NCBI GenBank assembly: GCA_021731385.1
Contig: JAKFXM010000207.1
Location: forward strand, 1 to 19,270
Source of the DNA: Methanobacteriota archaeon
Lineage (GTDB): Archaea > Altiarchaeota > Altiarchaeia > IMC4 > QMZM01
Direction of reading: 5' to 3'
DNA: 19,270 nucleotides
A program made the translations under genes and the position numbers. A model generated the notes under the pieces. It made no database searches. It worked only from the letters and a program-made list of their open reading frames with translations, and was not told where the DNA came from. Shown here piece after piece: positions 2,533-19,270 of this stretch; within the stretch, counting starts at the first letter, position 1; each line of letters begins with the position of its first letter.

Positions 2533-2600
2533 TTTCTTTCAAAAAGAAACCCGAAAAACCCGCTGGGTTTTTGGGCCCAAAAATTTGCTTTGCAAATTTT
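2533..2600. repeat. chain of overlapping perfect palindromes/hairpins in a divergent intergenic region
   Basis: Four elements were read directly from the sequence. These are tttcttt..aaagaaa (2533-2549), aaaaaccc-gct-gggttttt (2554-2572), the 16-nt perfect palindrome tttttgggcccaaaaa (2568-2583) and aaaatttgc-ttt-gcaaatttt (2580-2600). Confidence 0.6.
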
Positions 2601-2606
2601 TCGGGA

Positions 2607-2791
2607 AGGTTGATCAAAAAGAAAGGAATTTGCTCACTTCGTTCGCAGCGACAGGCTATGCCTGTCGCGTCTCAACAGCCTTCGGCTGTTGATCGCAAAT
2701 TCTGATTGAATAAAATTTAATGATTGAAATTACTATTATGTGGGGTGCGAAGCACCCCACCTATTTTGATCAACCTTTTGTTAAAAGGTTG
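2607..2791. repeat. inverted-repeat-bounded structured element of about 172 bp (MITE-like or regulatory) ending at the rfcL start
   Basis: An inverted repeat of AAGGTTGATCAAAA (2607-2620) and TTTTGATCAACCTT (2765-2778) bounds the element. Internal hairpins are gcgacaggc-tat-gcctgtcgc (2648-2668), aacagcc-ttcg-gctgtt (2674-2690) and gtggggtgc-gaa-gcaccccac (2739-2759, followed by ctatttt). A terminal hairpin caacctttt-gtt-aaaaggttg (2771-2791) is also present. The motif GTTGATC recurs at 2609, 2688, 2766 and 2788. Confidence 0.5.
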
Positions 2792-2796
2792 ATTTA

Positions 2797-4080
2797 ATGA
2801 TGGAATTCAATATGCAATATGACCCATCTTTAGATGGGTCAGTAAGTGGTGATGATCAACCTCCCGAATCAGAGTCAATGGCTCTGATTGGGCCCAATGA
2901 GCCTAAAGGCTCATTAGGGTTCAGAAGGTTGATGTGGATCAGGAAATATAAGCCGGGGCACCTTGATGAGATTGCAGGCAATGCAAAATTGGTTGAGGAG
3001 TTAAGGAAATACAACTGGAAAAAACCATTGCTTGTCTATGGTCCTCCCGGTACTGGAAAGACCGTCATCGTTGAGGCGCTTGCTGTTGATTTGGGATTTG
3101 AATTAACCGAGATAAACGACAGGAATATTGAAAATGCAAAAACAATTATGCAGACTTCAAGTATCTTTGGAGACAGAAAATTAATTCTAATTGACAATGT
3201 TGATCAGATTGGTAATATTGCGTTATTAACGGATGCAATAAAAGAGACAAGAAACCCGACAATTCTGATAACCTCCGAATTTCAGTCCAAAAGATTGAAG
3301 ACAATAAAACTGCTTTGTGAGAAGATTCAGATGAGGAGGCTCCTTTCCACAACAATTGCAAACCTCCTTCAAAAAATATGCAAAAGTGAGGGGATCGAGG
3401 CTGATAAGAGCATACTTGCAAAAATTGCAGAAAATGCCAATGGTGATGCAAGGTCTGCAATAAATGACCTCGAGATGATTGGAAAGGGAAAGAAAAAACT
3501 AACTGCTGAAGATACTGAACTCCTTGGATCAAGGAACAGGTTAATTGATGTTTATAGTGCCCTTAGTTCGATATTGGCAAAAAGGGATTTTAAAGAGGCT
3601 TTAAATTCTACAATGAATCTTGACTTGGAGCCAAGGGATACCCTTTTGTGGATCGATGAGAATCTCCCAAGGGTTTTTAAGGGTAAAAAAGAAATAAGCA
3701 GCGGATATAACTATATCTCAAGGGCCGATATATTTATCGGCAGGATCCAAAGCAGGCAATACTGGGGCTTTTTAAGATATGCAGTTCCATTGATGACCGG
3801 CGGTGTTAATGTTTCAAAAGGTACGTCACCTGTTAATTACGCAAGATACCAGTTTCCAATGTATATTGCAAAATTGGGACAGACAAAAAAGGAAAGATCA
3901 CTTAAAAAATCAATATCCGGGAAATTATCTCCAAAACTTCATGTCTCCTCTAAAATTGTGGTGCGGGATTATATCCCATTATTCAGAATATTGCTTAAGA
4001 ATAAAAAGATAGCCGAGAGGGAACTTGCCGAAAGATTTAAATTTGAGGATGAGGAGTTGGAGTACATCAAGGGCGATTAG
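2797..4080 (+). CDS. rfcL: replication factor C large subunit (clamp loader, AAA+)
   Basis: 427 aa. WIRKYKP is followed by the Walker A motif LLVYGPPGTGKT, then DNVD (the Walker B-like box) and a sensor region, ending in a long C-terminal helical domain. ATG ATG at 2797-2802 sits directly after a hairpin. An alternative in-frame ATG at 2932 (MWIRKYKP) would give the canonical N-terminus. TAG at 4078-4080. Confidence 0.75.
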   Translation: MMEFNMQYDPSLDGSVSGDDQPPESESMALIGPNEPKGSLGFRRLMWIRKYKPGHLDEIAGNAKLVEELRKYNWKKPLLVYGPPGTGKTVIVEALAVDLGFELTEINDRNIENAKTIMQTSSIFGDRKLILIDNVDQIGNIALLTDAIKETRNPTILITSEFQSKRLKTIKLLCEKIQMRRLLSTTIANLLQKICKSEGIEADKSILAKIAENANGDARSAINDLEMIGKGKKKLTAEDTELLGSRNRLIDVYSALSSILAKRDFKEALNSTMNLDLEPRDTLLWIDENLPRVFKGKKEISSGYNYISRADIFIGRIQSRQYWGFLRYAVPLMTGGVNVSKGTSPVNYARYQFPMYIAKLGQTKKERSLKKSISGKLSPKLHVSSKIVVRDYIPLFRILLKNKKIAERELAERFKFEDEELEYIKGD

Positions 4081-5391: not shown

Positions 5392-5418
5392 CTTTTTTAA
5401 GGAATTAAGGAATATACT

Positions 5419-6006
5419 TTATTTTTTATAATTAAAAACAAACCAGATCCTTTGTAATGCCGTTATATTTCCCAAAATTGCGGCAAGTTTGATTATATAT
5501 AAAAGCCATGAGAAATCAAAGTGTCCCAATAACATGCCGATGTAGATTAATGTCAAACGTTCACCCCTTTCTAAAATCCCACCCATTCTCCTATGATCTT
5601 CTGGTTCTGTTACAACCCCCCGATGGTCTGCATAAGCCCTGACAAATGAGGGCATAATAGCACCAAAGATCAAAAGAGAAATCCATAGTCCGGAAATCCC
5701 ATAGAAGAGAAGCCCCAAATATAACAAAATTTCAACATATCTGTCAACAATGCCATCAAGAAATGCACCAAAACTTGTTACACGCCCGGTAACCCTTGCA
5801 ACCGAACCATCGATTGCATCAATTATTCCTGAGATCAGGAAAAGGATGAGACCATAAATAAGGTGATGTGTGTACAATGCACCAAATCCTAAAACTGCAG
5901 GGATTATTGAGATAAGTGTCCATATATTCGGTGAAATTCCGAATCTTGAGAATATTATTCCAATCTTTATGGAAATTCCATCCGTATTGAATTTTGATTT
6001 GATCAT
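5419..6006 (-). CDS. CDP-alcohol phosphatidyltransferase family protein (archaeal polar-lipid head-group transferase)
   Basis: 195 aa. It carries the family signature D-x2-DG-x2-AR-x8-G-x3-G-x3-D-x3-D, seen here as DAIDGSVARVTGRVTSFGAFLDGIVD, within a multi-TM protein. SD GAGGG lies 7 nt before ATG at 6004-6006. The gene sits 9 bp downstream of the radical SAM gene. Confidence 0.7.
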   Translation of the reverse strand: MIKSKFNTDGISIKIGIIFSRFGISPNIWTLISIIPAVLGFGALYTHHLIYGLILFLISGIIDAIDGSVARVTGRVTSFGAFLDGIVDRYVEILLYLGLLFYGISGLWISLLIFGAIMPSFVRAYADHRGVVTEPEDHRRMGGILERGERLTLIYIGMLLGHFDFSWLLYIIKLAAILGNITALQRIWFVFNYKK

Positions 6007-6015
6007 TACTTTCCC

Positions 6016-7500: not shown

Positions 7501-7596
7501 TCTCTAAGAGGTGTAACTAAATATGAGTTCTTTACTAAATACTAAAAATTTTACTTCATGCAAATTTAATATGAAATTCTTTGAGAATTTTATATA

Positions 7597-8808: not shown

Positions 8809-8813
8809 TTTCG

Positions 8814-10037
8814 TTACCTGTATCTTAATGCATCGACTGGTTTCATATTAGCCGCTCTTATTGCAGGCATGTACCCTGAAATGCATCCTACGAGAAATGA
8901 AAACGCAAGTGCCCCTAATATTAAATCCGGTCCTGCATAGATGGCGAAATCCTTTATTCCATAGGACCTTACTACATTTTCAGCTATCAGGCTGGCGATG
9001 AGACCGAGTATTACCCCTATTATGCCCCCTACGAGACCAAGAAGTCCGGATTCCGCTATGAATATCAGGAGTATGTCGGAGTTTCTCGCACCGATTGATT
9101 TCATTATGCCTATCTGCCTTGTCCTTTCAATGACGGACGTGTACATGGTAGTCATTATGCCTATACCCCCAACAATCAGGGATATTGCGGCTATGCCGGA
9201 TAAAACGAGCGTGACTATGTTCAGTACGATCTTGAATGATGCAACGATATTTTCAGAAGTCTGAACAGAAAAGTCCTCCTCTTTTTCCTTAACGTGCCTG
9301 TGTTGTCGCAGGCGATCCTTAATCTTTTCTGCAACATCTGACGGTTCGGATCCCTTCTTTACCTTTACCGAGATCATTGAGTACTCGTCTGTTTTGTTAA
9401 AAAGATCCTTTGCAGTGTCAAGGGGTATTATTATCCTACTGGCTGTAAATGGGTCTCCGGTATCTTTATTTATGCCGACGACGTCGAATTCAACATCATT
9501 TATCTTAATCTTACTGCCTAATCTAATGTCTTTTTTAAACAGGCCTTCTCCAACATTAGGACCTATAATCGCCTTGTATCTATCGCTCTTCTTGAGATAA
9601 CCTCCCTTCTCAACCTTTGAGAAGTCCGAATCCCTAAGAAATGGCAGATACTCTGGGTCTGTTGATATCCCTACTACAGAACCAAACTTCTTTTTATTAT
9701 TGTATTCGATATCAGCTGTCACGAAGATTATACCAAGGGCCATGTCAACACCCCTCACCCTCTTGACGACGTCAACATCGCTTTCATGTAACTTGGCCGA
9801 AGTAAGCGTTCCGCCGGGAGGACCGCTCTGGAATCCCCCGCCTCCAGGGGTGACGATTATCCTATCACCACCTATAGCCTCAAACTGCCTATCTATGTAT
9901 TTCTGCAAACCCTGACCAAGGGAAATAAGGGTAACCACGGCAATTATGCCTATGAACACCCCTACCATTGTAAGCCAGCTCCTGACCTTCCTGTTGGCTA
10001 TGCCATCCAAGGCAAGCTTTAGATAATCGCTCCACAT
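8814..10037 (-). CDS. ABC transporter permease, MacB/FtsX-type (tandem paralogue)
   Basis: 407 aa with the same architecture and clear sequence similarity to the 7597-8808 product, for example the shared end ...MKPVDALRY. ATG at 10035-10037. Confidence 0.7.
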   Translation of the reverse strand: MWSDYLKLALDGIANRKVRSWLTMVGVFIGIIAVVTLISLGQGLQKYIDRQFEAIGGDRIIVTPGGGGFQSGPPGGTLTSAKLHESDVDVVKRVRGVDMALGIIFVTADIEYNNKKKFGSVVGISTDPEYLPFLRDSDFSKVEKGGYLKKSDRYKAIIGPNVGEGLFKKDIRLGSKIKINDVEFDVVGINKDTGDPFTASRIIIPLDTAKDLFNKTDEYSMISVKVKKGSEPSDVAEKIKDRLRQHRHVKEKEEDFSVQTSENIVASFKIVLNIVTLVLSGIAAISLIVGGIGIMTTMYTSVIERTRQIGIMKSIGARNSDILLIFIAESGLLGLVGGIIGVILGLIASLIAENVVRSYGIKDFAIYAGPDLILGALAFSFLVGCISGYMPAIRAANMKPVDALRYR

Positions 10038-10050
10038 GATTCATTAAAAA

Positions 10051-11688
10051 TCAAACCTTTCTCTTGAAGATTTTTCTGTCTATATAGCCTGTGAAAAGCA
10101 GGAGGAGTTTATAGACAAACCAAAGAACCAATCCAACAACGATTAAACCGACCAATAAACTCACTCCAGTGATTATAAGCGATACAGCGCTCCCTGTCGG
10201 CTGCTTACTTGCATACTCCTGTACTGAAAGGATGTTAAGGTCCAAATCCACCGTATCGATGTGGTCTATGTTACTGTTCTTTTCCTTGTAACTTACTTCA
10301 AGCTTCAGGGGTATTTTTCCCGCAGGGACGTTGTCTTTTATCTGTATCTCGAATTCCTGAGTGTCTGTTGCATCCGAGTCAAGGTTTCCTATATAGGCTT
10401 CAGTTGAGGAGAGCATATTGTAGTTTCCGGTAGGTAGGAGTTTAAGATTCAGGAATTTAACTTCAGCAAATCCTTTATTGACCACATTGATGGTTATCTT
10501 TCCCTTGCTTCCTGAAGTAAACAGGTCTGCTTTTTCAAGGATGAGTTTTATCTCGGGTTTACCGCTTACTTGTATGCCGATTGATTTCTTAACCGTATGC
10601 TTTAAGCCGGCTGAATCAAAGTAATCGATGCTTATAGGTACATCGTAGGCTTTTATGTCGGCTGTGGAGTCAATCATGGCTTGGAAATTTATTTTCTTTG
10701 TCTCATGGCCTTTGATTTTCCCGGCGTATCTATCAGATGACCCGACCGCGGTAAAGGGGCTTTCAAGGTCCAGTGTTACACTGACATCATCTGCAGGGGC
10801 GCTTCCTACATTGTTAATCTCTATGGAGATATTAGATACCGTTCCAGGATTTGTATTCTCATAAATTACGTTTGTTATCTTGAAGTCTACATCATATCTG
10901 TTAACATCTATTCCTACCAGCAGGGTCTCTGTTAAGGGATTGCCAGAAGCATCAGAATAATCGAGAATAAGGTTTAAAGAGCACACACCTACACTCACCG
11001 GTTGTATTAAATATTCCAGTTTAAAGTTTTCTCCTTTGCCTAAGTTCCCCATGTATGATTTCGAAGAACCAAGTATAGAAGCACATGATGATGAAAGCGT
11101 TGCAGAAATATCTCTTGCCCCGTCCTGCGTACTACCTATGATAACAAGTTTCTCGCTGATGTCTTCAAAAAAATCTGCTTTTTCTACATCAACCTTGAAA
11201 TTAGCCTTTCCATAAGTCCTCAACGGAAAATCCCAGAGGGAAAGCTGATTGTTTTTCCTGTTTCCTTTAGAGTCATAACCATCGTAGCTTATCCTTACCT
11301 GTAGAGTGTGAAGACCTATAGAAGCGTCTTTTGATATAGATACAGTCGTTGATACGGTTTTTGTACTTAACGGGTCTATTCTGCCTACATCCCATCTCCT
11401 GTCAACGTGTACATCGCTTGTCCCGGGTATGTAGACCTGTACATTTTCCGCAGACTGTAAGCCGACATTCTTTACCACAACCTGCAGAACACCTGAATCA
11501 CCCGGCTTAAGGTTGCTGTCTATGTGCGTCAGATCATAATCCAATACTACGTTTGTCGGTGTAAGAACTGTCTGCGTTGCAGTTGTAGTCATGCTTGCCG
11601 TTTCCTGAATTGTTGCATTGACTATTCCGATAATCACTGAAAATATAGCCAACAGAAGCATTCCCTTATAAATTCTTTTCATATTCAT
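10051..11688 (-). CDS. secreted or surface-anchored protein with repeated COG1361/DUF11-like (CARDB-type) beta domains
   Basis: 545 aa. The N-terminal signal peptide is MNMKRIYKGMLLLAIFSVIIGIVNA. Repeated segments of the form NVG....V.V.L follow (VKNVGLQSAENVQVYIP, IEINNVGSAPADDVSVTL, ITINVVNKGFAEVKFLNL). The C-terminus has a TM helix and a basic tail (LIVVGLVLWFVYKLL...RKIFKRKV). SD GGAGG lies 10 nt before ATG at 11686-11688. Confidence 0.6.
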   Translation of the reverse strand: MNMKRIYKGMLLLAIFSVIIGIVNATIQETASMTTTATQTVLTPTNVVLDYDLTHIDSNLKPGDSGVLQVVVKNVGLQSAENVQVYIPGTSDVHVDRRWDVGRIDPLSTKTVSTTVSISKDASIGLHTLQVRISYDGYDSKGNRKNNQLSLWDFPLRTYGKANFKVDVEKADFFEDISEKLVIIGSTQDGARDISATLSSSCASILGSSKSYMGNLGKGENFKLEYLIQPVSVGVCSLNLILDYSDASGNPLTETLLVGIDVNRYDVDFKITNVIYENTNPGTVSNISIEINNVGSAPADDVSVTLDLESPFTAVGSSDRYAGKIKGHETKKINFQAMIDSTADIKAYDVPISIDYFDSAGLKHTVKKSIGIQVSGKPEIKLILEKADLFTSGSKGKITINVVNKGFAEVKFLNLKLLPTGNYNMLSSTEAYIGNLDSDATDTQEFEIQIKDNVPAGKIPLKLEVSYKEKNSNIDHIDTVDLDLNILSVQEYASKQPTGSAVSLIITGVSLLVGLIVVGLVLWFVYKLLLLFTGYIDRKIFKRKV

Positions 11689-11753
11689 TTTTCGCTATCC
11701 TCCTTTATTTTTATTATAATAAATTTTATGTGTCCGCATGAATTTTATGGATT

Positions 11754-12443
11754 TTATTCTGCGGGAACAACCTTGCCGTCTTTTAGATTTACAGACCTTT
11801 TGGCATATTTAGCCACATTTGGATCGTGCGTTACCATTACGATGGTTTTGCCTTCTCTGGAGTGCAAATCCGAAAGCATCGTCATAACTTCTCTCCCGGT
11901 TTTTGTGTCAAGGTTTCCCGTAGGCTCGTCTGCCAGTATAACCTCCGGATTGTTTGCAAGCGATCTCGCTATAGCAACCCTCTGCTGCTGACCTCCCGAC
12001 AGTTCCATTGGTTTGTGATTTAGTCTGTCGCCTAAGCCCACTGATACCAGGAGTTCTTTTGCTCTTTTCTCTCTTTGGTCTCTTGGAACTCCTTGGAATG
12101 TCATTGGTAGCATTATATTTTCAAGCGCTGTGAGCCCCGGCATGAGATTGAATGTCTGGAATATGAATCCTATCTTTTTGCCTCTTATTTGCGCGAGGTC
12201 GCTTTCCGAGAGCTGGGATATGTCTTGGCCTGAAAGGAAGATTTTCCCTCTTGTAGGCACATCCAGACACCCCACCATGTTCATCGCAGTTGATTTTCCA
12301 CTTCCGCTTGGACCCATTATGGCTACAAACTCTCCATGAAAGACTTTAAGGCTAATTCCTCTAAGTGCGGGCACCTCTACATTGCCCATATTGTAGATTT
12401 TCCAGACATCCTGCAACTCTATTACTGGATTTTGATTTTCCAT
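11754..12443 (-). CDS. ABC transporter ATP-binding protein (MacB/LolD-like)
   Basis: 229 aa. It carries Walker A GPSGSGKST, the signature LSGGQQQRVAIAR, Walker B ILADEPTGNLD and an H-loop VTHD. ATG at 12441-12443. Confidence 0.85.
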   Translation of the reverse strand: MENQNPVIELQDVWKIYNMGNVEVPALRGISLKVFHGEFVAIMGPSGSGKSTAMNMVGCLDVPTRGKIFLSGQDISQLSESDLAQIRGKKIGFIFQTFNLMPGLTALENIMLPMTFQGVPRDQREKRAKELLVSVGLGDRLNHKPMELSGGQQQRVAIARSLANNPEVILADEPTGNLDTKTGREVMTMLSDLHSREGKTIVMVTHDPNVAKYAKRSVNLKDGKVVPAE

Positions 12444-12487
12444 CTGGGATACCAGTATATTATGGAACGCTTACAGAAATACAAAAA

Positions 12488-13510
12488 ATGCGCCACTATT
12501 CCATCTGGCTTGAAAGGTATAACAGCAGAAGAGACCAGATTCTAAGAAATCTCAGGGTATACAAGGATGAGGTAAATTCAATAAAGAAAATCATATCAGA
12601 TAAAAACCTTATACTCCCGCTGAAAGAAACAAATGTTGATATGGGGGGGAGAATGTGCTTTGTCGATGGCGGTGAAGGAGTAACTGAACTTCTTGGTGCA
12701 TCAGTCTACTTTATACGCGCATCAGGATTGATTTTAGACAGGGCGCAAAATGCGCCAAAGGAAGAATTTGTCAGGGATCTCGATATTGACGTGATAGATC
12801 ATAATGAACATACAAAAGAGAGGATTGAATTCCTCCGAAGTGCGATGGAATTTGATGTTGCCATGAGATGCATAGAGAAGCATAATCCGGAATATCTCTT
12901 TATTGATGGCTCGCTATATGTAAATTCGGAAAAGAGGCCAATAGAGTGCAGTGAATACCACTCGTATAGAAAAAAATTTGCACGGCTCTTGAAATCCTGC
13001 AAAAAGAATTCAGTTCACATCGTCGGGGTTTCTGAAGACAGCCAGTCAAGACTTTTTATGAATTATCTTTCAATGAAGTACAGAATAAAATTTCCGAAAT
13101 TTATGACAGATTCAAGTATTCTCAGGCTAATTTCATTGAATACGAAATTCAGAACCATAGAATTTATCCCGCGGTCCGTCTTTGAATCCGATTCTTCTTC
13201 ACCCCTAACGGTGTCATTCCCTACCATTTACATCCAGCCGACAAGCCTCTCAAATCCGTTAAGGGTTGATGTTCCTGACTGGGAACAGGATTTCAAGAAG
13301 GTTATAAGCCTCATACTACAACTCTCAAAGGGCTCAAAGCAGTATGGTTATCCCCTGCCGTTATACCTTGTTCATCTTGATGCAAGAATTGAAGAAAAGC
13401 AGACCGAATGGAGCACAAGGCAGATTATACACCACATCTCGAGAGAGGATCCTGAACTTTATGAAACGATCCTGAGAGAGAAGCGGAGGGGATTCAGACC
13501 GAAAAGCTGA
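12488..13510 (+). CDS. nurA: NurA-family 5'-3' nuclease (orphan; no HerA in window)
   Basis: About 340 aa from ATG 12488. NurA motifs, as I recall them, appear in order: CFVDGG (first Asp motif), YLFIDGSLY (second Asp motif), IVGVSEDSQS (GVxKxS-like) and YGYPLPLYLVHLDA (GYP...L..H). The six-frame ORF extends to a GTG at 12365, but that portion overlaps the ABC ATPase gene on the other strand and is likely not translated. Confidence 0.55.
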   Translation: MRHYSIWLERYNSRRDQILRNLRVYKDEVNSIKKIISDKNLILPLKETNVDMGGRMCFVDGGEGVTELLGASVYFIRASGLILDRAQNAPKEEFVRDLDIDVIDHNEHTKERIEFLRSAMEFDVAMRCIEKHNPEYLFIDGSLYVNSEKRPIECSEYHSYRKKFARLLKSCKKNSVHIVGVSEDSQSRLFMNYLSMKYRIKFPKFMTDSSILRLISLNTKFRTIEFIPRSVFESDSSSPLTVSFPTIYIQPTSLSNPLRVDVPDWEQDFKKVISLILQLSKGSKQYGYPLPLYLVHLDARIEEKQTEWSTRQIIHHISREDPELYETILREKRRGFRPKS

Positions 13511-13587
13511 GATATCTTTGTTTAATAGTATGGTATATTCTTATTCATTCAATTTAATATTAAAGTATCTCTATAACTGGTGATTCT

Positions 13588-16500
13588 ATGGCACAAAGCA
13601 AACCCCAAATTAGTTCTAAAGACAAGAAAAATTTTGCCAACCCGAAAAATTCCAAAGGAATTTTTGGGCCCATTGAGCCAGAGGCTCAATCGGGTGGCAA
13701 AATTTTTGTGCCCAATCAGAAACTTATAGTTTCTGATTCGGGCAAGAAGGAAAAATTTATTCTCTGGTTTGATGAAATCGGCATTGAGGATGTCCCTCTT
13801 GTAGGCGGAAAAAATGCATCCTTGGGGGAGATGATAAGAGAGTTAAGCAGCGAGGGGATAAATGTTCCAAACGGTTTTGCAATAACTGCCTATGCATATA
13901 ACTATCTGCTGAAAAATGCCAAGATTGAGGAGAAGATTAAATCCGCTCTCGCAGACCTTGACACACATAACATTAACAACTTAATGGAAAGGGGCAAAAA
14001 GGTCAGGGATATAATTCTCAAAGCTGAATTTCCGGAAGAACTAAAATCTGAAATAATAGATGCATATTCCCAGATGCACAAGAAATTTGGCTATGAAGGA
14101 AATCCGGATGTCGCTATTCGCTCAAGCGCAACTGCAGAGGATTTGCCAGATGCTTCTTTTGCAGGGCAGCAGGACACCTACCTCAACATCAGGGGTCCTG
14201 ATGCTGTGATTGATGCGTGTAAAAAATGTTTTGCAAGCCTCTTTACCGACCGGGCAATCTCGTACCGGACGGATAAGGGCTTCAACCATTTTGATGTCTA
14301 CCTTTCAATTGCCGTCCAAAAGATGGTCCGGAGCGATTCTGCGAGTTCCGGTGTCGTTTTCTCGATAGATACTGAGTCTGGTTTTAAGGATGTTGTTTTT
14401 ATAACGGGTTCTTACGGTCTTGGTGAAAACATTGTCAAGGGTGCAGTAAATCCAGATGAAATCTATGTATTCAAGCCAACACTGAAAAAGGGAAAGAAAC
14501 CAATTATTGGAAAGAAATTGGGGACAAAGAAGATAAAGATGGTTTATTCCGATACCGGAACTAAGAATATAGACACACCGGAAGAAGAGAGTAACAGATT
14601 CTGCATGACGGATGATGAGGCATTGAAATTGGCCGAGTGGACATGCATCATTGAGGATCACTACAGTAAAAAGGCAGGTTATTACAAGCCCATGGACATA
14701 GAATGGGCAAAGGATGGTGACGGAATAAAAATTGGATCTGGCAAATTATTCGTTGTCCAGGCAAGACCGGAAACAGTGCATTCTCAGAAAAATTCAAAGA
14801 TAATAAGGACATACATACTGAAGGAAACGGGCACGGTTCTTATTACGGGTCAGGCAGTAGGGGAACTTATTGGAAAGGGCGAAGCGAATAATATTGCAAG
14901 TTCTGAAGAGATAACGAAATTCAAAAAAGGTCAGGTTCTTGTAACAGACATGACTGATCCGGATTGGGAGCCGATAATGAAGATAGCATCTGCGATTGTT
15001 ACGAATAGGGGGGGCAGGACATGTTTCTCTGGAGATACTAAAATTTTAACTAACAATGGATTTATGACTATGAGTGAAATTTTTGAAAATCATGAAGGGC
15101 TGTTTGTTCCTTCTCTGAACAGAAATACCCTAAAAATAGAATGGAAGTCTATTCTAGCTGTAATGAAAAGACAAAGCGAGGTTATTGAAATTGAAACATC
15201 ATTAACAGGAAGGATGAAAGGCAACAGACTTAAACTTACACCAGACCATAAGATGCTCACATTTGAGAATAGGCAACTTGTTACAAAGGAAATAGATAAA
15301 ATCGTAGAAGAGAAAGAATACCTAACAATAATGGACGCCCTTCCAGCATTATCAAGCAGTTCTGAAAGAGAAAATGATCTTGCATATCTGCTGGGTGCAA
15401 TATCAACTGATGGCCATATATATCTAACAAAAACTCATGGAGAAGTTCAATTAATCCAAAAACCAACAAAGGAAAAAGAGGCTTTTATTAAAGAGGTTGA
15501 TGGTTGCTTAAACAAGGTTTACGGCAAAAGATTTAATCCGAAATTCAGAGAATTTCGGAGCTTCGATTTTCCTCTGGAAAATCGAATTAAGGTCAGCAAA
15601 AAGCAAGAGAGTGAAGGGAGTATTAGAGGAAAACCTTGTATAGGCTCTGCAAATGCTTACAGATGTTACGGTAAACAAATAGCTATAAGTTTATTAGAAG
15701 AACAACAAAATTTCATTCAGACACTCTTATATGCTGATGAGAGCCTAATTCTTAATTTCCTGGCAGGGGTTATTGATGGCGATGGTTCAATTAACGGGGA
15801 AGGAACAAGAATCAATATATATTGTTCAAAAGAAGGTCTTTTACAGCAAATAGTTGTTGGATGTCTTAGATTAGGCATACTCCTGCAGGTTACAAGAAAC
15901 AGGAATATTTACAATGTGCAAATCGTTGAGAAGTTAGATAGAATATTAGAATTTACGAAACGGGTTAAATGTCATAACAAGAAAAATTTCCTTTCAGGAA
16001 ATTTTTGTGTGGCTGAGCCCAAAGGGCTCAGACACGTGTCTGAGGCGAAGCCTCAGCCACATGCCCAATCAGCCTTAAAGGCTGATTCGGGTAAAAATGA
16101 TAGAAAGCGTATTGGGACAAGATTCTTTTCTGCAAGACAACTCCTTGATGATGTTAAACACAAGGTGAATTATAAGGGCAGAACTTTGCCGTGCATAGAC
16201 AAAAACCTGTTAATTGACTCTGAAAAAATTAAGAGGGATCTACTTGGATTGTGTCCTGAAAAAATTAAAAACGAAATTATGAAGATACTATCCTCAGATA
16301 CAAGAATGCAAAGAGTTAGGAAAACTGCCAATTTAGGGGTTCAGGATGTTTATAATATAACAATTGCAGATAATCACAATTATGTTGTTTTCACTGATAG
16401 ATACACACCAATAATTGTCAATAACTGTCACGCAGCAATAGTGTCAAGGGAACTCGGAATTCCATGCATTATCGGAACAGGTAATGGAACGGAAATTCTT

Positions 16501-17598
16501 AAATCCGGTAAAAAGGTTACAGTTTCCTGCGCAGAAGGCGAGATCGGGAGTGTCTATGACGGGCTTCTTGATTTTGAGATAAAGGAAATTGATCTTAAGG
16601 AATTGCCAAAGACAAAGACAAAGATAATGATGAATGTGGGGATGCCTGACAAGGCATTTGTCCAGGGTCAGATCCCATGTGATGGCGTCGGGCTTGCAAG
16701 GGAGGAATTCATAATAAATTCATACATAGGAATACATCCTCTTGCACTGCTAAATTATGACAAATTAAAGGAAACTGCAAGATCTGACAAAAGGATTGCC
16801 GATGTTATAAAAATTATAGACGAAAAAGCAAAGGGCTATGGGAACAAGGTTGAATTCTTTATTGACGAACTTGCAAGGGGAATTGCAAGGATTGCAGCAG
16901 GCTTTTACCCGAATGATGTAATTGTCAGATTCTCTGATTTCAAATCAAACGAGTATGCAAATCTTGTAGGCGGGTTCCTATATGAGCCGATGGAGCATAA
17001 TCCGATGATAGGATGGAGGGGTGCTTCAAGGTACTATGACAAGAATTTCAAGCCCGCATTTGGCCTGGAGTGCAAGGCAATCCTCAGGGTGAGAAATGAA
17101 TTTGGGCTTGAGAATGTAAAGGTAATGGTTCCATTCTGCAGGACTATTGATGAAGGTAAAAAGGTCATAGAAACAATGAGGGAATTTGGATTAAATCAAG
17201 GAGAGAATAATCTGCAGGTATATGTGATGTGCGAAATTCCAAGTAATGTTATACTTGCAGACAAATTTTCTGAAATATTTGATGGATTCAGCATTGGTTC
17301 AAATGACCTGACGCAACTTACCTTAGGACTTGACAGGGATTCATCTCTTGTTGCTCCCATATATGACGAGAGAAATGAGGCTGTGAAGAGGCTGGTGAAG
17401 CATGTCATAGAGGTTGTGCATAAACATAAGCCAAGAAGAAAGATAGGAATCTGCGGGCAAGCCCCTAGTGATCATGAAGATTTCGCCGCATTTTTGGTTG
17501 AGTGCGGGATTGATTCAATTTCCTTGAATCCTGATACAGTAATAAAGACAAGATTAAAGATCGCGGAAAAGGAGAGAGAGATTGGAATTTCTGCGTGA
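13588..17598 (+). CDS. ppsA: phosphoenolpyruvate synthase (pyruvate, water dikinase), intein-containing precursor
   Basis: 1336-aa ORF. The N-terminus ILWFDEIGIEDVPLVGGKNASLGEM matches the PpsA start. The phosphohistidine motif TNRGGRT/CHAAIVSRELGIPC is split by a 468-aa insertion, and the C-terminal PEP-utilising domain is present (NDLTQLTLGLDRDS). Extein length is about 868 aa, including a Lys-rich N-terminal extension of about 50 aa. An alternative GTG start exists at 13708. Confidence 0.85.
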   Translation: MAQSKPQISSKDKKNFANPKNSKGIFGPIEPEAQSGGKIFVPNQKLIVSDSGKKEKFILWFDEIGIEDVPLVGGKNASLGEMIRELSSEGINVPNGFAITAYAYNYLLKNAKIEEKIKSALADLDTHNINNLMERGKKVRDIILKAEFPEELKSEIIDAYSQMHKKFGYEGNPDVAIRSSATAEDLPDASFAGQQDTYLNIRGPDAVIDACKKCFASLFTDRAISYRTDKGFNHFDVYLSIAVQKMVRSDSASSGVVFSIDTESGFKDVVFITGSYGLGENIVKGAVNPDEIYVFKPTLKKGKKPIIGKKLGTKKIKMVYSDTGTKNIDTPEEESNRFCMTDDEALKLAEWTCIIEDHYSKKAGYYKPMDIEWAKDGDGIKIGSGKLFVVQARPETVHSQKNSKIIRTYILKETGTVLITGQAVGELIGKGEANNIASSEEITKFKKGQVLVTDMTDPDWEPIMKIASAIVTNRGGRTCFSGDTKILTNNGFMTMSEIFENHEGLFVPSLNRNTLKIEWKSILAVMKRQSEVIEIETSLTGRMKGNRLKLTPDHKMLTFENRQLVTKEIDKIVEEKEYLTIMDALPALSSSSERENDLAYLLGAISTDGHIYLTKTHGEVQLIQKPTKEKEAFIKEVDGCLNKVYGKRFNPKFREFRSFDFPLENRIKVSKKQESEGSIRGKPCIGSANAYRCYGKQIAISLLEEQQNFIQTLLYADESLILNFLAGVIDGDGSINGEGTRINIYCSKEGLLQQIVVGCLRLGILLQVTRNRNIYNVQIVEKLDRILEFTKRVKCHNKKNFLSGNFCVAEPKGLRHVSEAKPQPHAQSALKADSGKNDRKRIGTRFFSARQLLDDVKHKVNYKGRTLPCIDKNLLIDSEKIKRDLLGLCPEKIKNEIMKILSSDTRMQRVRKTANLGVQDVYNITIADNHNYVVFTDRYTPIIVNNCHAAIVSRELGIPCIIGTGNGTEILKSGKKVTVSCAEGEIGSVYDGLLDFEIKEIDLKELPKTKTKIMMNVGMPDKAFVQGQIPCDGVGLAREEFIINSYIGIHPLALLNYDKLKETARSDKRIADVIKIIDEKAKGYGNKVEFFIDELARGIARIAAGFYPNDVIVRFSDFKSNEYANLVGGFLYEPMEHNPMIGWRGASRYYDKNFKPAFGLECKAILRVRNEFGLENVKVMVPFCRTIDEGKKVIETMREFGLNQGENNLQVYVMCEIPSNVILADKFSEIFDGFSIGSNDLTQLTLGLDRDSSLVAPIYDERNEAVKRLVKHVIEVVHKHKPRRKIGICGQAPSDHEDFAAFLVECGIDSISLNPDTVIKTRLKIAEKEREIGISA
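15022..16425 (+). mobile_element. intein with LAGLIDADG homing-endonuclease domain inside ppsA
   Basis: The intein starts CFSGDTKILT (block A) directly after GGRT. Block B is LKLTPDH. The two LAGLIDADG motifs are LAYLLGAISTDGHIY and LNFLAGVIDGDGSI. Block F/G is VYNITIADNHNYVVF...IIVNN, followed by the extein CHAAIV. The insertion is 1404 nt (468 aa) and in frame. The penultimate residue is Asn rather than the usual His. Confidence 0.85.
15984..16087. repeat. hairpin-chain repeat element (copy A of conserved core) embedded in frame in the intein
   Basis: Hairpins are aaatttcc-tttca-ggaaattt (15984-16004), ctgagccc-aaa-gggctcag (16013-16031) and ctgaggc-gaa-gcctcag (16040-16056). The palindrome gacacgtgtc sits at 16031-16040, followed by ccacatg and then aatcagcc-ttaaa-ggctgatt (16067-16087). 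The segment is GC-rich relative to its flanks and encodes VAEPKGLRHVSEAKPQPHAQSALKADSG. Confidence 0.6.
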
Positions 17599-17642
17599 TT
17601 GAGTGAAATTTTGAGTAGGGTATCTAGATAAATTGAAGTTTC

Positions 17643-17691
17643 GACACCTTTGGTCCCGAACCGAATGTTTCGGTCTTGAACCGCAGGTGTC
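17643..17691. repeat. nested hairpin between ppsA stop and the next gene (possible terminator or structured 5' region)
   Basis: The outer stem is gacacct (17643-17649) pairing with aggtgtc (17685-17691). It encloses the inner hairpin accgaa-tgt-ttcggt (17660-17674) and an imperfect direct repeat ggtcccgaacc / ggtcttgaacc. cttgccctta follows. Confidence 0.4.
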
Positions 17692-17716
17692 TTGCCCTTA
17701 TAACGGAGGTGTTAGA

Positions 17717-18553
17717 GTGGATATTATCTTCCTTTCCGTAAATGATGTCCAGAGTTCAGAATACATAAGAGAGGGCAGCAAAAACCTGCTGAAGACAAGA
17801 TTCTGTACAGCAGATACAATTGCACTCTGCGGGAGGCTTGAGGACGCTGAGAGAACAAAATACGGTCCCAGGTTATGGATAAACGACGGGGAGAGATTCC
17901 CTGTCGTTATAGGAACCTTCAACAAGAATGTTCGGAGGGATGCGGAACAGATTGTTGACGAATTCAAAAAAAATAGCAAAAAAGAGACCTATGTCCTGAT
18001 CTATGGGAATCCCTATGAAACAGATAAGATCTACATAAATGTCAATCATGAGAATTGTGTCATTGTTGTGGATAAAGCAGTATATGAAAAATTCCACGAG
18101 ATGCGGAAACTTGCGGAGCAGCATGTGACAGAGCGACTTCGTCGCCCGAAAAATCGCAAGGCGATTTTTGGGTGTGGCGGAGAACCTTTGGTTCTCCGAC
18201 ATATATCTGAGCGATTTCATCGCTCAGCTATACCCAATTTGCCTCCGGCAAATTCGGGCTCTGACATATGTCCGAGAGGTTTTACCTCTCGGCCACATCT
18301 TACAAAGAAATCCGACACAAGTGAGAAAAAGATTGAGATAGTCAGGGAAAAAGGAATTTCCGGGGAAATTTCTGATTCTGATATAATAAATCTTATAAAG
18401 AAGGGGGATAAGAGTAGTGGGGTAAGGATTGATGAATTTCTAAAACTATTTGAAATTGAATCAAGGGCTAATATTGAAGAAAAAATCTATCAGATGGTTG
18501 AATCAGGCGAACTCTATGAGCCGAGGGCGGGATTTGTGAAGGTTGTTGAATAA
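17717..18553 (+). CDS. hypothetical protein with C-terminal winged-helix-like domain, carrying an in-frame hairpin-repeat insertion
   Basis: Start chosen at GTG 17717, which has the perfect SD GGAGGT at 17705-17710 and a 6-nt spacer. The six-frame ORF begins at an upstream TTG (17633) inside the hairpin region and is rejected. The K/E/I/N-rich N-domain and C-terminal helix-turn-helix-like segment (IINLIKKGDKSSGVRIDEFLKLF...) flank an R/P/G/S/C-rich insert of about 60 aa. Confidence 0.5.
   Translation: MDIIFLSVNDVQSSEYIREGSKNLLKTRFCTADTIALCGRLEDAERTKYGPRLWINDGERFPVVIGTFNKNVRRDAEQIVDEFKKNSKKETYVLIYGNPYETDKIYINVNHENCVIVVDKAVYEKFHEMRKLAEQHVTERLRRPKNRKAIFGCGGEPLVLRHISERFHRSAIPNLPPANSGSDICPRGFTSRPHLTKKSDTSEKKIEIVREKGISGEISDSDIINLIKKGDKSSGVRIDEFLKLFEIESRANIEEKIYQMVESGELYEPRAGFVKVVE
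18133..18299. repeat. hairpin-chain repeat element (copy B of conserved core) lying in frame inside the 17717-18553 CDS
   Basis: Six consecutive hairpins run in order: gcgac-ttc-gtcgc, aaaatcgc-aag-gcgatttt (18150-18168), ggagaacc-ttt-ggttctcc (18179-18197), tgagcgat-ttc-atcgctca (18208-18226), aatttgcc-tcc-ggcaaatt (18237-18255) and ccgagaggt-ttt-acctctcgg (18272-18292). The core gggctctgacatatgtc (18256-18272) and ccacatc are present. The frame has no stop codon and the segment is GC-rich relative to the surrounding gene. Confidence 0.6.
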
Positions 18554-18558
18554 AAAAC

Positions 18559-18942
18559 CTAAACCCTGCAAAACTCATTCCACACCCTGCCCATCCCTAA
18601 AACGTAAGAGGAGAATTCTTCTGAAATTCTTAGTTCATGAACCCCTCTGCTCTTATTATAGACCTTCTCCACCATTCCGGCATTTCTAAGCCTTTTCAGC
18701 ATGTTATGATATATGCTTTGCGTTATGCCCTTTTTTGTGCAGTAATTCTCCCAGCCCTTAACGCTGTATGGTGAGTCTGTCCTGCCCCATTCCTTTATAT
18801 GGCTCAGGAATTCCTTAGATATTTGGACAAGTTCAGGATTTTTCCAGAATATCTGTCTTAGAATGTGTTCTATGCTGTCTGGTGGTTCTTTTGGTTTGAA
18901 TTCAATCTTCAGTTTTGGTTTTTTCTTTATTATTTCCTTCAT
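18559..18942 (-). CDS. small putative winged-helix DNA-binding protein
   Basis: 127 aa. ATG at 18940-18942 is preceded by an AT-rich, TATA-like region (18943-19030). An HTH-like segment GITQSIYHNMLKRLRNAGMVEKV is present. It lies convergent with the upstream gene. Confidence 0.45.
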   Translation of the reverse strand: MKEIIKKKPKLKIEFKPKEPPDSIEHILRQIFWKNPELVQISKEFLSHIKEWGRTDSPYSVKGWENYCTKKGITQSIYHNMLKRLRNAGMVEKVYNKSRGVHELRISEEFSSYVLGMGRVWNEFCRV

Positions 18943-19035
18943 ATCTTATATTATCTCATCATGATATAAATATAAAAATAATTCAATATTTCATATAATT
19001 TGAAATAACATACAAAAAAATAAGAATATAAACAA

Positions 19036-19060
19036 CTGTCGGCTAAAGCCGACAGTTTTT
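19036..19060 (+). terminator. stem-loop followed by T5 (intrinsic-terminator-like)
   Basis: ctgtcggc-taaa-gccgacag (19036-19055) is followed by ttttt (19056-19060). It sits in the AT-rich spacer upstream of the minus-strand 18559-18942 gene, so orientation and function are uncertain. It could also be the first hairpin of the adjacent repeat element. Confidence 0.3.
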
Positions 19061-19068
19061 ATGCGCCT

Positions 19069-19270
19069 GAATCTGCCCCATATATTGAACTGCCCATTAA
19101 TCCGAGACCAGAGGTCTCGGAGCTTCGATGTGGCAGAGCCCTATGGGCTCTGACATATGTCGGAGGCATAGCCTCCGCCACACACCAAATGTGTCGAATT
19201 ATATGAAACTCCTAAAGGAGTTTCATAGATATGAATCTGCTTTGCAGATTCATATTAAAAGGGGCAGATT
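19069..19270. repeat. TIR-bounded hairpin-chain element (copy C of conserved core), MITE-like, truncated by window end
   Basis: The terminal inverted repeat is gaatctgcccc (19069-19079) pairing with ggggcagatt (19261-19270, running to the window end). Internal hairpins are ccgagacc-aga-ggtctcgg (19102-19120), cagagccc-tat-gggctctg (19134-19152), ggaggc-ata-gcctcc (19162-19176), gaaactcc-taaa-ggagtttc (19205-19224) and tgaatctgc-ttt-gcagattca (19232-19252). The palindrome gacatatgtc sits at 19152-19161, followed by ccacacacc. The core matches copies A and B. Confidence 0.6.

What the first reader, a model, noticed from the sequence alone, without database searches (positions are those of the whole stretch)
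15984..16087. Hairpin repeat nested inside an intein that is itself nested inside ppsA (three-level nesting of selfish elements)
Copy A of the repeat core lies within the 468-aa LAGLIDADG intein, between the endonuclease domain and splicing block F, and preserves the frame. For PEP synthase to be active, the intein must still splice with this extra segment of about 30 aa present. So either the insertion is neutral to splicing or the locus is decaying. A MITE-like element inside a homing intein is unusual, and it is useful for dating the relative timing of the intein and repeat invasions.
Basis: partly seen in the sequence, partly recalled or inferred. Interest (0 to 1): 0.7.

Follow-up and report, generated by a model that had tools for sequence, protein, structure and literature searches.

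The report
Mobile hairpin repeats inside a ppsA intein
Two tiny mobile hairpin-forming DNA repeats have landed in frame inside a self-splicing, mobile protein insert (an intein) that itself interrupts an archaeon's PEP synthase gene. They seem to be tolerated as floppy surface loops, which makes this a rare, datable stack of selfish elements nested four deep.

Summary

- **The intein.** The ppsA ORF (13588-17598) carries a 468-aa LAGLIDADG intein (15022-16425). The intein is precisely absent from a 99.7%-identical sister MAG. A 255-nt tract of mostly synonymous differences follows it, which looks like co-conversion during homing.
- **Insert A.** The intein has a 40-codon insert (about 15970-16089) that all 25 homologous inteins spanning the site lack. 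Its DNA is four perfect hairpins (folding z = -11.6) arranged H(+)-M2-H(-), the same layout as copy B (18125-18298).
- **Copy B.** Copy B is itself a 58-codon in-frame insert in a neighbouring gene. Its 60-nt M2 core is present in the window and absent in the sister MAG, with no target duplication.
- **Second intein insert.** A different 50-nt two-hairpin element (15537-15586) also sits in the intein. It is flanked by a TTAA duplication, and removing it restores the homologue consensus.
- **Tolerance.** Only one of six frames is open through A and through B, and it is the frame in use. AlphaFold models a confident intein fold whose only low-confidence segments are the two inserts.
- **Family.** M2 recurs in 14 metagenome contigs, with 198 of 199 stem positions paired across 14 different arm sequences.

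Best reading: REP/RPE-like mobile hairpin elements of an archaeon (probably Altiarchaeota), tolerated as loops in a recently mobile intein. Splicing and the transposase remain untested.

The parts
13588..17598 (+). ppsA (PEP synthase) precursor ORF, 1336 aa. The exteins total 868 aa.
   Evidence: Pfam PPDK_N 2.9e-122, PEP-utilizers, PEP-utilizers_C. The sister MAG encodes the 868-aa intein-less protein.
15022..16425 (+). 468-aa LAGLIDADG homing intein, inserted at GGRT|CHAA next to the phospho-histidine.
   Evidence: Pfam Intein_splicing and LAGLIDADG_3. Boundaries. Precisely absent in L081. AlphaFold pLDDT 86; Foldseek best matches are TliVMA, PI-PfuI, PI-TkoII and PI-SceI.
15970..16089 (+). 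Insert A: a 40-codon in-frame composite hairpin insertion, as placed by the protein alignment. An alternative placement is 15970-16091 plus a TAAA duplication.
   Evidence: Absent from 25 of 25 homologous inteins. Folding z = -11.6. GC 49.5% against 33.9% for the rest of the intein. pLDDT < 50 for intein residues 321-361.
15982..16006 (+). H(+)-like hairpin of insert A (AAAAATTTCCT-TTC-AGGAAATTTTT), with degenerate CCCG/GGG clamps.
   Evidence: 11-bp perfect stem. Occupies the same position as the CCCGAAAAA...TTTTTGGG unit of copy B.
16008..16061 (.). M2 dimer of insert A: TGTGG-CTGAGCCC(AAA)GGGCTCAG-ACACGTGT-CTGAGGC(GAA)GCCTCAG-CCACA. It is dyad-symmetric.
   Evidence: The pattern hits on both strands. 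Parsed against 12 other copies.
16064..16091 (-). H(-) unit of insert A: CCC-AATCAGCCT(TAA)AGGCTGATT-C-GGG. This is the CCCG...GGG unit read on the minus strand, with one bulged base.
   Evidence: Pattern hit. Fold shown.
15533..15590 (+). Second intein insert. The 50-nt two-hairpin 'T-type' element is 15537-15586, flanked by TTAA at 15533-15536 and TTAA at 15587-15590. Together they add 54 nt, or 18 codons (NPKFREFRSFDFPLENRI).
   Evidence: Absent from 26 of 26 homologues. Removing the element plus one TTAA gives GKRF|KVSKK, which matches the homologues. Folding z = -5.9. pLDDT < 50 at intein residues 174-189. A sister copy lies at 19101.
16443..16680 (+). Putative co-conversion tract in the C-extein, immediately 3' of the intein.
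   Evidence: 26 of the 27 downstream differences from L081 fall here. There are none in the 357 nt upstream of the intein. Of 23 differing codons, 19 are synonymous.
18125..18298 (+). Copy B: a 174-nt (58-codon) nested hairpin composite, in frame in ORF 17717-18553. The host gene is a conserved hypothetical protein that is 206-221 aa in relatives.
   Evidence: Absent in P0049-51 and in L083. Folding z = -10.8. Only 1 of 6 frames is open.
18173..18232 (+). Inner M2 dimer of copy B, 60 nt. It is present in the window and absent in the sister MAG, at a GGG|CCC junction, with no target duplication.
   Evidence: L082 joins window 18172 directly to 18233. P0048 lacks the 20 aa CGGEPLVLRHISERFHRSAI.
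19097..19202 (+). Intergenic T-type element (19101-19198, flanked by TTAA and TTAT). M2 copy C (19129-19182) is nested in its second hairpin.
13641..13742 (+). Three H-type hairpin units in frame in the 55-aa N-terminal extension of the ppsA ORF. They read PKNSKGIFG / PIEPEAQSG / PNQKLIVSDSG.
   Evidence: tblastn matches of other PpsA proteins start at about query residues 50-57.
2533..2918 (.). Intergenic and 5'-leader array of at least 10 hairpin units, including H(+)/H(-) pairs at 2550-2605 and 2863-2918.
   Evidence: The L081 contig ends inside this array.

Best explanation
**Overall picture.** The segment is a nested stack of selfish elements in an archaeal genome, probably Altiarchaeota, that is saturated with short mobile hairpin modules.

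**Level 1, the intein (shown).** A LAGLIDADG homing intein sits in ppsA at GGRT|CHAA. It is a recent arrival, or a current polymorphism, in this lineage.

**Levels 2 to 4, the hairpin elements.** Two independent hairpin-element insertions landed inside the intein ORF.
- (a) A 50-nt two-hairpin element with a TTAA target duplication, in the endonuclease domain.
- (b) The composite H(+)-M2-H(-), at the linker after the second LAGLIDADG half-domain. M2 is a dyad-symmetric doublet of two hairpins of 23-29 nt. H is a CCCG-stem-loop-stem-GGG hairpin with one bulged base.
- That M2 moves on its own is shown by the 60-nt indel in copy B. That it prefers to sit between or inside other hairpin units is seen in A, B, C and L087.

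**Mobilisation (inferred).** The modules move as structured single-stranded DNA, REP/REPIN-like: a clamp plus an irregularity plus a perfect stem is what is recognised. M2 leaves no duplication. The T-type element uses a cut-and-paste enzyme that duplicates TTAA.

**Why the host gene survives (inferred).** In coding DNA only insertions that are a multiple of 3 long, free of stop codons and placed in surface loops survive. They are then translated as disordered loops that do not stop the intein from folding and splicing, so PEP synthase is still made.

**Confidence by step.** Nesting and foreign origin of both inserts, about 0.9. Neutrality to splicing, about 0.6. Single-stranded-DNA, REP-like mobilisation, about 0.3.
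For: **Intein identity and mobility.**
- Pfam and boundaries.
- Fold: pLDDT 86, pTM 0.85, with best PDB matches TliVMA, PI-PfuI, PI-TkoII and PI-SceI.
- L081, from MAG GCA_017973895.1, is 99.73% identical over 12.4 kb and lacks exactly nt 15022-16425.
- 26 of 27 downstream differences lie within 255 nt after the intein, and 19 of 23 differing codons are synonymous.
- The intein is 33.9% GC against 41.7% for the extein.

**The inserts are foreign to the intein.**
- Homologues have 0-1 aligned residues at both sites: 25 of 25 and 26 of 26.
- Insert A is 49.5% GC.
- Folding z = -11.6 for A and -5.9 for the second insert.
- The TTAA/TTAA duplication allows exact restoration of the homologue consensus.

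**The repeats form a family.**
- Pattern statistics.
- 14 metagenome contigs carry M2.
- Across 13 M2 copies, 198 of 199 stem positions are Watson-Crick with 14 distinct arm sequences.
- A T-type sister copy has identical flanks.

**Mobility.**
- A 60-nt M2 indel separates the window from L082.
- The whole of composite B is absent in L083 and in P0049-51.

**Tolerance and selection.**
- Only 1 of 6 frames is open through A and through B, and both use the same element-relative frame.
- Every element insertion that can be sized in coding DNA is a multiple of 3 long (54, 54, 60, 120 and 174 nt), while intergenic M2 copies are mostly 56 nt.
- The only segments with pLDDT < 50 are intein residues 174-189 and 321-361, which are the two inserts.
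- Splicing residues are conserved: C1, TPDH, and terminal N followed by C.

**Context.** Ca. Altiarchaeum hamiconexum is reported to have the highest MITE density among archaea (PMC11602168).
Against: - No splicing, expression or proteome data exist. Integrity of the ORF is the only evidence that the precursor works.
- Low pLDDT in the inserts is partly expected, because those columns have no homologues in the alignment.
- No transposase was identified, whether a RAYT/Y1 enzyme or an IS parent. A scan of 66 ORFs from the metagenome loci showed none among the 25 families listed.
- A and B differ in every stem, so no donor copy of A is known. The boundaries of A are ambiguous (120 nt, or 122 nt plus TAAA).
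- The direction of the M2 indel, insertion or precise excision, cannot be set without an outgroup that has H(+)H(-) only.
- The intein is known from this one contig only. The nearest homologue is 55% identical, so the insertions cannot be dated against the last homing event.
- The taxonomic assignment rests on named homologues of one gene at about 40-56% identity.
Confidence: 0.7

Rival explanations
1. The locus is decaying. The hairpin insertions have disabled splicing or the endonuclease, so this strain's ppsA yields an unspliced, inactive precursor and is on its way to becoming a pseudogene.
For: - There are two insertions in one intein.
- Insert A lies between the endonuclease core and the C-terminal splicing region.
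- There is no functional data.
- An intein-less allele exists in the population, so the intein-bearing allele could be a deleterious minority variant.
Against: - The 1336-codon ORF has no stop or frameshift.
- Both inserts are a multiple of 3 long, and only the frame in use is open through A. That is what purifying selection on the ORF would leave.
- Splicing blocks and both LAGLIDADG motifs are conserved.
- The model keeps a confident HINT plus endonuclease fold.
- By general biochemistry, PEP synthase is needed for gluconeogenesis in an autotroph.
Confidence: 0.12
2. The hairpins were not transposed. They arose in situ through palindrome-generating replication errors (template switching or snap-back synthesis), and the resemblance between copies reflects a shared mutational mechanism.
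For: - Stems are essentially always perfect although their sequences differ.
- A and B share architecture but no stem sequence.
- No transposase was found.
- The M2 indel has no target duplication.
Against: - Conserved non-stem frames recur in unrelated contexts and in contigs of 30-48% GC: TGTGG / GACAYRTGTC / CCACA, CCCG...GGG, and TTAA|TCCGA...TCGGAGCTTCGA.
- The T-type element has a clean TTAA duplication.
- M2 copies keep a nearly constant length of 54-56 nt with different arm lengths.
Confidence: 0.1
3. The hairpin segment has been co-opted. As mRNA structure or as a peptide loop, it regulates translation, precursor folding or conditional splicing of PpsA.
For: - The predicted RNA structure in the coding region is very stable, -63.8 kcal/mol, z = -11.2.
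- Inserts A, B and the ppsA N-terminal array are all read in the same element-relative frame.
Against: - The same modules are scattered in intergenic DNA and in unrelated genes.
- The sister strain makes PpsA without the intein or the inserts.
- Use of a single frame is explained by stop codons in the other five frames.
Confidence: 0.05
4. The segment is a native, lineage-specific variable linker of this intein, or an assembly artefact, and its similarity to copies B and C is coincidental.
For: The linker after TKRVK varies somewhat in length among homologues. The intein is known from a single metagenomic contig.
Against: - 25 of 25 homologues lack it.
- It consists of four perfect hairpins, z = -11.6.
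- The exact family pattern has 0 matches expected by chance.
- Its GC content is 15 points above the rest of the intein.
- An artefact would not be expected to keep a 1336-codon frame open.
Confidence: 0.03

Closest known systems
Rickettsia palindromic elements (RPEs)
   Same: Both are palindromic repeats that insert in frame into unrelated protein-coding genes. They add a peptide segment that appears compatible with the host protein's fold (review PMC10969869). Here that happens in the intein (twice), in ORF 17717-18553, in the ppsA N-terminus and in a transposase-like ORF in L084.
   Different: RPEs are about 100-150 bp, bacterial, and have family-specific conserved peptides. The modules here are 25-60 nt, archaeal, have variable stems, nest inside each other, and one host is an intein. 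No sequence relationship was tested or is expected.
REP / REPIN / BIME elements mobilised by RAYT (HUH/Y1) transposases
   Same: - Both use 20-40-nt hairpins with a conserved foot and an irregularity.
- Units occur as inverted doublets (M2 is two hairpins in opposite orientation) and in clustered arrays.
- The polymorphic M2 copy has no target duplication.
- REPs are documented inside genes, where dimers encode 20-30 aa and clusters 43-82 aa (PMC3733652; REPINs in PMC3116915, listed).
   Different: The defining GTAG or CGTC tag is absent; the feet here are GTGG/CCAC and CCCG/GGG. No RAYT gene was found. The host is an archaeon. Stems are almost never mismatched.
Prokaryotic MITEs, including the high cMITE load reported for Ca. 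Altiarchaeum hamiconexum
   Same: The T-type element has a 4-bp TTAA target duplication and imperfect terminal inverted repeats (TCCGA... / ...TCGAA). The genome context is rich in such elements (PMC11602168).
   Different: At 50 nt it sits at the very bottom of the MITE size range. No parent IS was identified. M2 shows no duplication. Whether these families are among the published cMITEs was not checked.
Small dispersed repeats (SDR) of Nostoc/Anabaena (Elhai et al. 2008, Genome Res, 'Very small mobile repeated elements in cyanobacterial genomes')
   Same: From memory, as the paper was not read here: tiny hairpin-forming mobile repeats that insert into one another to give nested arrays.
   Different: The host domain and the sequences differ. 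This is a recalled lead only. The title was seen in the citing papers listed.
PEP synthase inteins and solved LAGLIDADG inteins (TliVMA 7qss, PI-PfuI 1dq3, PI-TkoII 2cw7, PI-SceI)
   Same: - The architecture is a HINT domain plus a LAGLIDADG endonuclease.
- The insertion site is at T|CH next to the catalytic histidine, shared with 20+ PpsA inteins.
- The penultimate residue is not His across the family.
   Different: None of the homologues carries the two hairpin-encoded loops. The nearest sequence is only 55% identical.

Membership tests
Intein with LAGLIDADG homing endonuclease | N-terminal Cys/Ser/Thr, block B TxxH, C-terminal Asn followed by a Cys/Ser/Thr +1 residue | tested here: met
   C1 (CFSGDTK), TPDH, and ...IIVNN|C. 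Pfam Intein_splicing 2e-13.
Intein with LAGLIDADG homing endonuclease | Two LAGLIDADG motifs and the endonuclease fold | tested here: met
   LAYLLGAISTDG and LNFLAGVIDGDG. Pfam LAGLIDADG_3. Foldseek hits to TliVMA, PI-PfuI and I-DmoI at probability 1.00.
Intein with LAGLIDADG homing endonuclease | Precise in-frame presence/absence relative to an intein-less allele | tested here: met
   L081 reads GGRT|CHAA with exactly nt 15022-16425 missing.
Intein with LAGLIDADG homing endonuclease | Protein splicing and homing endonuclease activity | not testable with these tools
   There is only indirect evidence: the intact ORF and the flanking co-conversion-like tract.
REP/REPIN (RAYT-mobilised) | Short (20-40 nt) imperfect palindrome, often as inverted doublets and arrays | tested here: met
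   M2 half-units are 23-29 nt and occur in opposite orientation. H units are 26-32 nt with a bulged base. Arrays lie at 2533-2918, 13641-13742 and 18125-18298.
REP/REPIN (RAYT-mobilised) | Conserved GTAG or CGTC tetranucleotide tag at one end | tested here: not met
   The feet are (T)GTGG...CCAC(A) and CCCG...GGG. The definition is from PMC3733652.
REP/REPIN (RAYT-mobilised) | Cognate RAYT (HUH/Y1) transposase gene flanked by the repeats | tested here: inconclusive
   None was found in the window. None was among the 25 families displayed for 66 ORFs of the M2-bearing contigs. No whole genome was available.
MITE | Target-site duplication | tested here: met
   This holds for the T-type element only: TTAA at 15533-15536 and 15587-15590, and TTAA/TTAT around 19101-19198. 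It is not met for the M2 indel, which has a clean GGG|CCC junction.
MITE | Terminal inverted repeats matching a parent IS | tested here: inconclusive
   Imperfect terminal inverted repeats exist: TCCGAAATTC/TTCGATTTTC for T-type and (A)TGTGG/CCACA(T) for M2. No parent IS was found.
Rickettsia palindromic elements | Palindromic repeat inserted in frame in ORFs, adding a peptide segment | tested here: met
   There are five in-frame cases that can be sized, each a multiple of 3 long.
Rickettsia palindromic elements | Sequence membership in RPE-1 to RPE-10 families; Rickettsiales host | not tested
   The host is an archaeon (RFC, NurA and methanopterin-pathway genes). No RPE sequences were compared.

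The most novel reading that the evidence does not exclude
The H, M2 and T modules may be an undescribed archaeal family of mobile elements defined by structure rather than sequence. They would be REPIN analogues without the GTAG/CGTC tag that nest preferentially inside one another and are routinely translated as disordered protein segments. Because two of them sit in a homing intein that was recently transferred between lineages (it is polymorphic and has a co-conversion tract), the intein could act as a vehicle that carries hairpin elements into new genomes: selfish elements hitch-hiking on a selfish element.
Probability: 0.3. Interest if true: 0.75.

Novelty: new variant of a known kind. Interest (0 to 1): 0.6.

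Why it matters
**A natural tolerance experiment.** Two foreign loops, of 18 and 40 residues, are apparently accommodated at defined positions in a LAGLIDADG intein. These are ready-made permissive sites for intein engineering, and they test how robust splicing is to insertions.

**A rare view of layered selfish elements with polarity.**
- The intein is polymorphic between genomes that are 99.7% identical.
- It carries a flanking conversion tract about 11% divergent.
- It contains elements that 25-26 homologous inteins from other lineages lack.
- So the order of events (intein spread within the lineage, then hairpin invasion, then M2 nesting) can be reconstructed and dated once more genomes are available.

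**Extension to archaea.** In-frame REP/RPE-type 'protein decoration' is known from Rickettsia and some other bacteria. This case extends it to an archaeon. It also points to a hairpin-element system whose transposase is unknown.

**A practical point.** These arrays break metagenomic assemblies and inflate predicted N-termini.

Tried and rejected
- **Rfam.** The gathering-threshold search of the whole window found no family, so these are not known structured RNAs.
- **Exact-protein look-ups.** The 1336-aa precursor and the ABC ATPase are not on record. The radical-SAM neighbour did find the sister MAG.
- **Genome-contig scan with PpsA.** It returned 80 loci, all intein-less ppsA of other lineages at 51-74% identity. 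None has the window's hairpin density: 0.44 per kb at most, against 1.45 per kb.
- **IMG/VR scan for M2.** 0 hits, so there is no sign of a viral origin.
- **Intein homologue search.** Nothing is closer than 55% identity, so neither the donor lineage nor an insert-free near-identical intein could be found.
- **Literature searches.** The MAG accession, 'Altiarchaeum + intein', 'intein + MITE' and 'intein + REP' gave no report of a repeat element inside an intein.
- **Transposase search.** A scan of 66 ORFs from the M2-bearing contigs was inconclusive.
- **Considered and dropped.**
  - CRISPR array: there is no regular spacing.
  - Terminator hairpins: they lie inside ORFs and mostly have no T-run.
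  - A peptide search of the protein database for other element-decorated proteins: 18-aa matches cannot reach significance against 5.8 billion sequences.
Full report
**What is at the coordinates**

The ORF 13588-17598 encodes a 1336-aa PEP synthase (PPDK_N, PEP-utilizers, PEP-utilizers_C) interrupted by an Intein_splicing/LAGLIDADG_3 region. The intein is residues 479-946 (nt 15022-16425, 468 aa). It begins CFSGDTK after GGRT and ends IIVNN before CHAAIV. The reported interval 15984-16087 lies in a run of four perfect hairpins: 15982-16006, 16013-16031, 16040-16056 and 16067-16087. As single-stranded DNA the 121-nt segment folds at -40.1 kcal/mol against -13.7 +/- 2.3 for shuffles (z = -11.6). 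As RNA z = -11.2. Rfam has nothing there.

**Is it an extra loop?**

Yes. I collected 44 homologues of the intein. The best is 55% identical. They come mostly from PpsA of diverse bacteria and archaea, with a few from RtcB. In a MAFFT alignment, CHNKKNFLSGNFCVAEPKGLRHVSEAKPQPHAQSALKADS sits in a gap between the conserved TKRVK and G..(R/N)RK..G(T/S)RFFSA. In the larger alignment A2, all 25 homologues that span the site have 0-1 residues there.

The insert is 40 codons (about nt 15970-16089). One ambiguity remains: it can also be read as 122 nt plus a TAAA duplication (15966-15969 and 16092-16095).

**A second insert in the intein**

The same alignments show a second insert unique to the window, NPKFREFRSFDFPLENRI, with 26 of 26 homologues gapped. 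Its DNA is two perfect hairpins at 15537-15559 and 15562-15586. They are flanked by TTAA on both sides. Deleting the 50-nt element and one TTAA gives GKRF|KVSKK, exactly the homologue consensus. A sister element with the same frame (TTAA|TCCGA-n-AGA-n-TCGGAGCTTCGA...TCGAA|TTAT) lies at 19101-19198.

**The repeat family**

Copy A has three parts.
- An H(+)-like hairpin.
- An M2 dimer: TGTGG-CNGAG..CTCNG-ACAYRTGT-CNGAG..CTCNG-CCACA.
- An H(-) unit, which is CCCG-stem-loop-stem-GGG with one bulged base, read on the minus strand.

Copy B (18125-18298) has the same H(+)-M2-H(-) core, nested in the first hairpin of an outer M2. Copy C (19129-19182) is an M2 nested in the T-type element.

The patterns are far beyond chance.
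- The M2 half-site hits 6 times against 0 in 200 shuffles.
- The H unit hits 9 times against 0.1 expected.
- The window has 1.45 perfect hairpins per kb, against at most 0.44 per kb in 80 ppsA loci from other genomes.

One scan of JGI metagenomes found M2 in 14 contigs of 30-48% GC. Their genes are archaeal, including TBP, formylmethanofuran-H4MPT formyltransferase and an intein-bearing A-ATPase. In 13 non-redundant M2 copies, 198 of 199 stem positions are Watson-Crick although there are 14 different arm sequences. Total length stays at 54-56 nt, occasionally 62.

**Evidence of mobility**

An exact-protein look-up of the neighbouring radical-SAM gene found contig L081 of MAG GCA_017973895.1. 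It is 99.73% identical to window 2576-15024. It then continues at 16426, so the intein is precisely absent and ppsA there encodes 868 aa.

Of the 27 differences downstream, 26 lie in 16443-16680, and there are none in the 357 nt upstream of the intein. Of 23 differing codons, 19 are synonymous. This is the pattern expected if the intein came in by homing from a related but diverged allele, with one-sided co-conversion. The intein is also compositionally foreign: 33.9% GC without the inserts, against 41.7% for the exteins. Insert A is 49.5% GC.

Contig L082 of the same MAG matches window 17625-18172 and then 18233-19270. So the 60-nt inner M2 of copy B is a clean indel at a GGG|CCC junction with no duplication. 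A more distant relative (L083, about 80% identical) and proteins P0049-51 lack the whole 174-nt composite.

**Consequences for the proteins**

Copy B adds 58 residues to a conserved 206-221-aa protein, in the linker between its two conserved halves. Three H units are read in frame in a 55-aa N-terminal extension of PpsA that other PpsA proteins lack. A 54-nt M2 lies in frame in a transposase-like ORF in L084.

Through A and through B only one of the six frames is free of stops. It is the frame in use, and it is the same frame relative to the element in both. The five coding-region insertions that can be sized (the two intein inserts, copy B, its inner M2, and the L084 M2) are each a multiple of 3 long, whereas intergenic M2 copies are mostly 56 nt. 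That is the signature of selection keeping the host ORFs open.

AlphaFold2 with 29 sequences gives a confident model (pLDDT 86, pTM 0.85). Its only segments below pLDDT 50 are intein residues 174-189 and 321-361, which are the two inserts. Low confidence there is partly expected, because no homologue covers those columns. The rest of the model matches the TliVMA, PI-PfuI, PI-TkoII and PI-SceI inteins. Insert A falls after the second LAGLIDADG half-domain and before a helical region that precedes the C-terminal splicing strands.

**Interpretation**

Shown:
- The intein, the M2 dimer and the composite B each differ in presence between related genomes.
- Both intein inserts are foreign to the intein family and belong to repeat families with other copies.
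- The ORF stays open.

Inferred:
- The modules are mobilised as structured single-stranded DNA. M2 and H would move in a REP/REPIN-like way with no duplication. The T-type element would move by an enzyme that duplicates TTAA.
- They prefer to land in or between existing hairpins.
- In coding DNA only neutral loop insertions survive.
- The intein still splices.

The source organism is an archaeon, as shown by RFC, NurA and a methanopterin-pathway radical-SAM enzyme. It is probably Altiarchaeota, because the only named homologues of ORF 17717-18553 are Altiarchaeales/Altiarchaeota. This fits the report that Ca. Altiarchaeum hamiconexum has the highest MITE density among archaea (PMC11602168).

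**Comparison with known systems**

In-frame palindromic insertions are classic for Rickettsia RPEs (PMC10969869). They are also documented for GTAG/CGTC REPs, whose dimers encode 20-30 aa and whose clusters encode 43-82 aa (PMC3733652). The present elements work like these but fail the defining REP tag, since they have no GTAG or CGTC, and no RAYT was found. The T-type element meets the MITE criterion of a target duplication. I found no report of such an element inside an intein.

**Verdict**

This is a new variant of a known kind. It is moderately to highly interesting as a datable stack of selfish elements and as a natural test of intein tolerance. Splicing competence and the mobilising enzyme remain open.

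Noticed in passing
window 15533-15590: A second mobile element lies inside the same intein. It is a 50-nt two-hairpin unit with a perfect TTAA/TTAA duplication. Excising it restores the homologue consensus GKRF|KVSKK. A sister copy lies at 19101-19198.
   Followed up: yes
window 17626 (L081 tail / L082 1-104): The sister MAG carries a roughly 100-nt element here that the window lacks. It has imperfect terminal inverted repeats (TAGTAACAGACAT... / ...ATGTCATTTGCTA) and an apparent TA duplication. This is another recently mobile MITE-like element.
   Followed up: partly
window 13588-13752: The ppsA ORF has a 55-aa N-terminal extension that other PpsA proteins lack. Much of it (13641-13742) is three H-type hairpin units read in frame. 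The ATG at 13588 is preceded by GGTGA, so the extension may really be translated. The sister MAG shares it.
   Followed up: partly
window 2797-2932: The RFC large-subunit ORF is extended about 45 codons upstream of the conserved MWIRKYKP start, through three more hairpin units (2820-2841, 2863-2892, 2893-2918). This is probably a 5' leader mis-read as coding.
   Followed up: no
window 1-71, 19229-19270; L081 and L082 contig ends: The window is a complete 19,270-nt contig. Both of its ends, and the ends of the sister MAG's contigs, fall inside hairpin arrays. These repeats therefore fragment metagenomic assemblies.
   Followed up: partly
P0014, P0019, P0022: Inteins in RtcB RNA ligase are clear homologues (34-39% identity) of this PpsA intein. 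Both insertion sites read T|CH(A/G)A, which suggests the intein family jumped between two genes with similar local sequence.
   Followed up: no
window 16420-16428 and alignment: The penultimate intein residue is Asn, and in homologues Asn/Glu/Trp/Lys/Ser, rather than the usual His. The whole PpsA/RtcB intein family lacks the penultimate histidine.
   Followed up: no
window 7597-10037: Two tandem MacB/FtsX-type permease paralogues (403 and 407 aa) share a 183-nt stretch at 75% identity (7801-7983 and 9015-9197). This is an ordinary tandem gene duplication.
   Followed up: no
L087 407-520; window 18125-18298: M2 hairpins can themselves be split by further hairpin units inserted in their loops. 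This happens in the L087 second hairpin and in the first hairpin of the outer M2 of copy B, which suggests a preference for landing in existing hairpins.
   Followed up: partly
L086 2295-4607, L094 5696-8008, L095 2799-5156: At least two of these M2-bearing metagenome contigs, which come from related archaea, encode an A-type ATPase subunit with an intein. An M2 copy lies about 100 nt downstream of the stop codon. Inteins and hairpin elements therefore co-occur repeatedly in this group.
   Followed up: no
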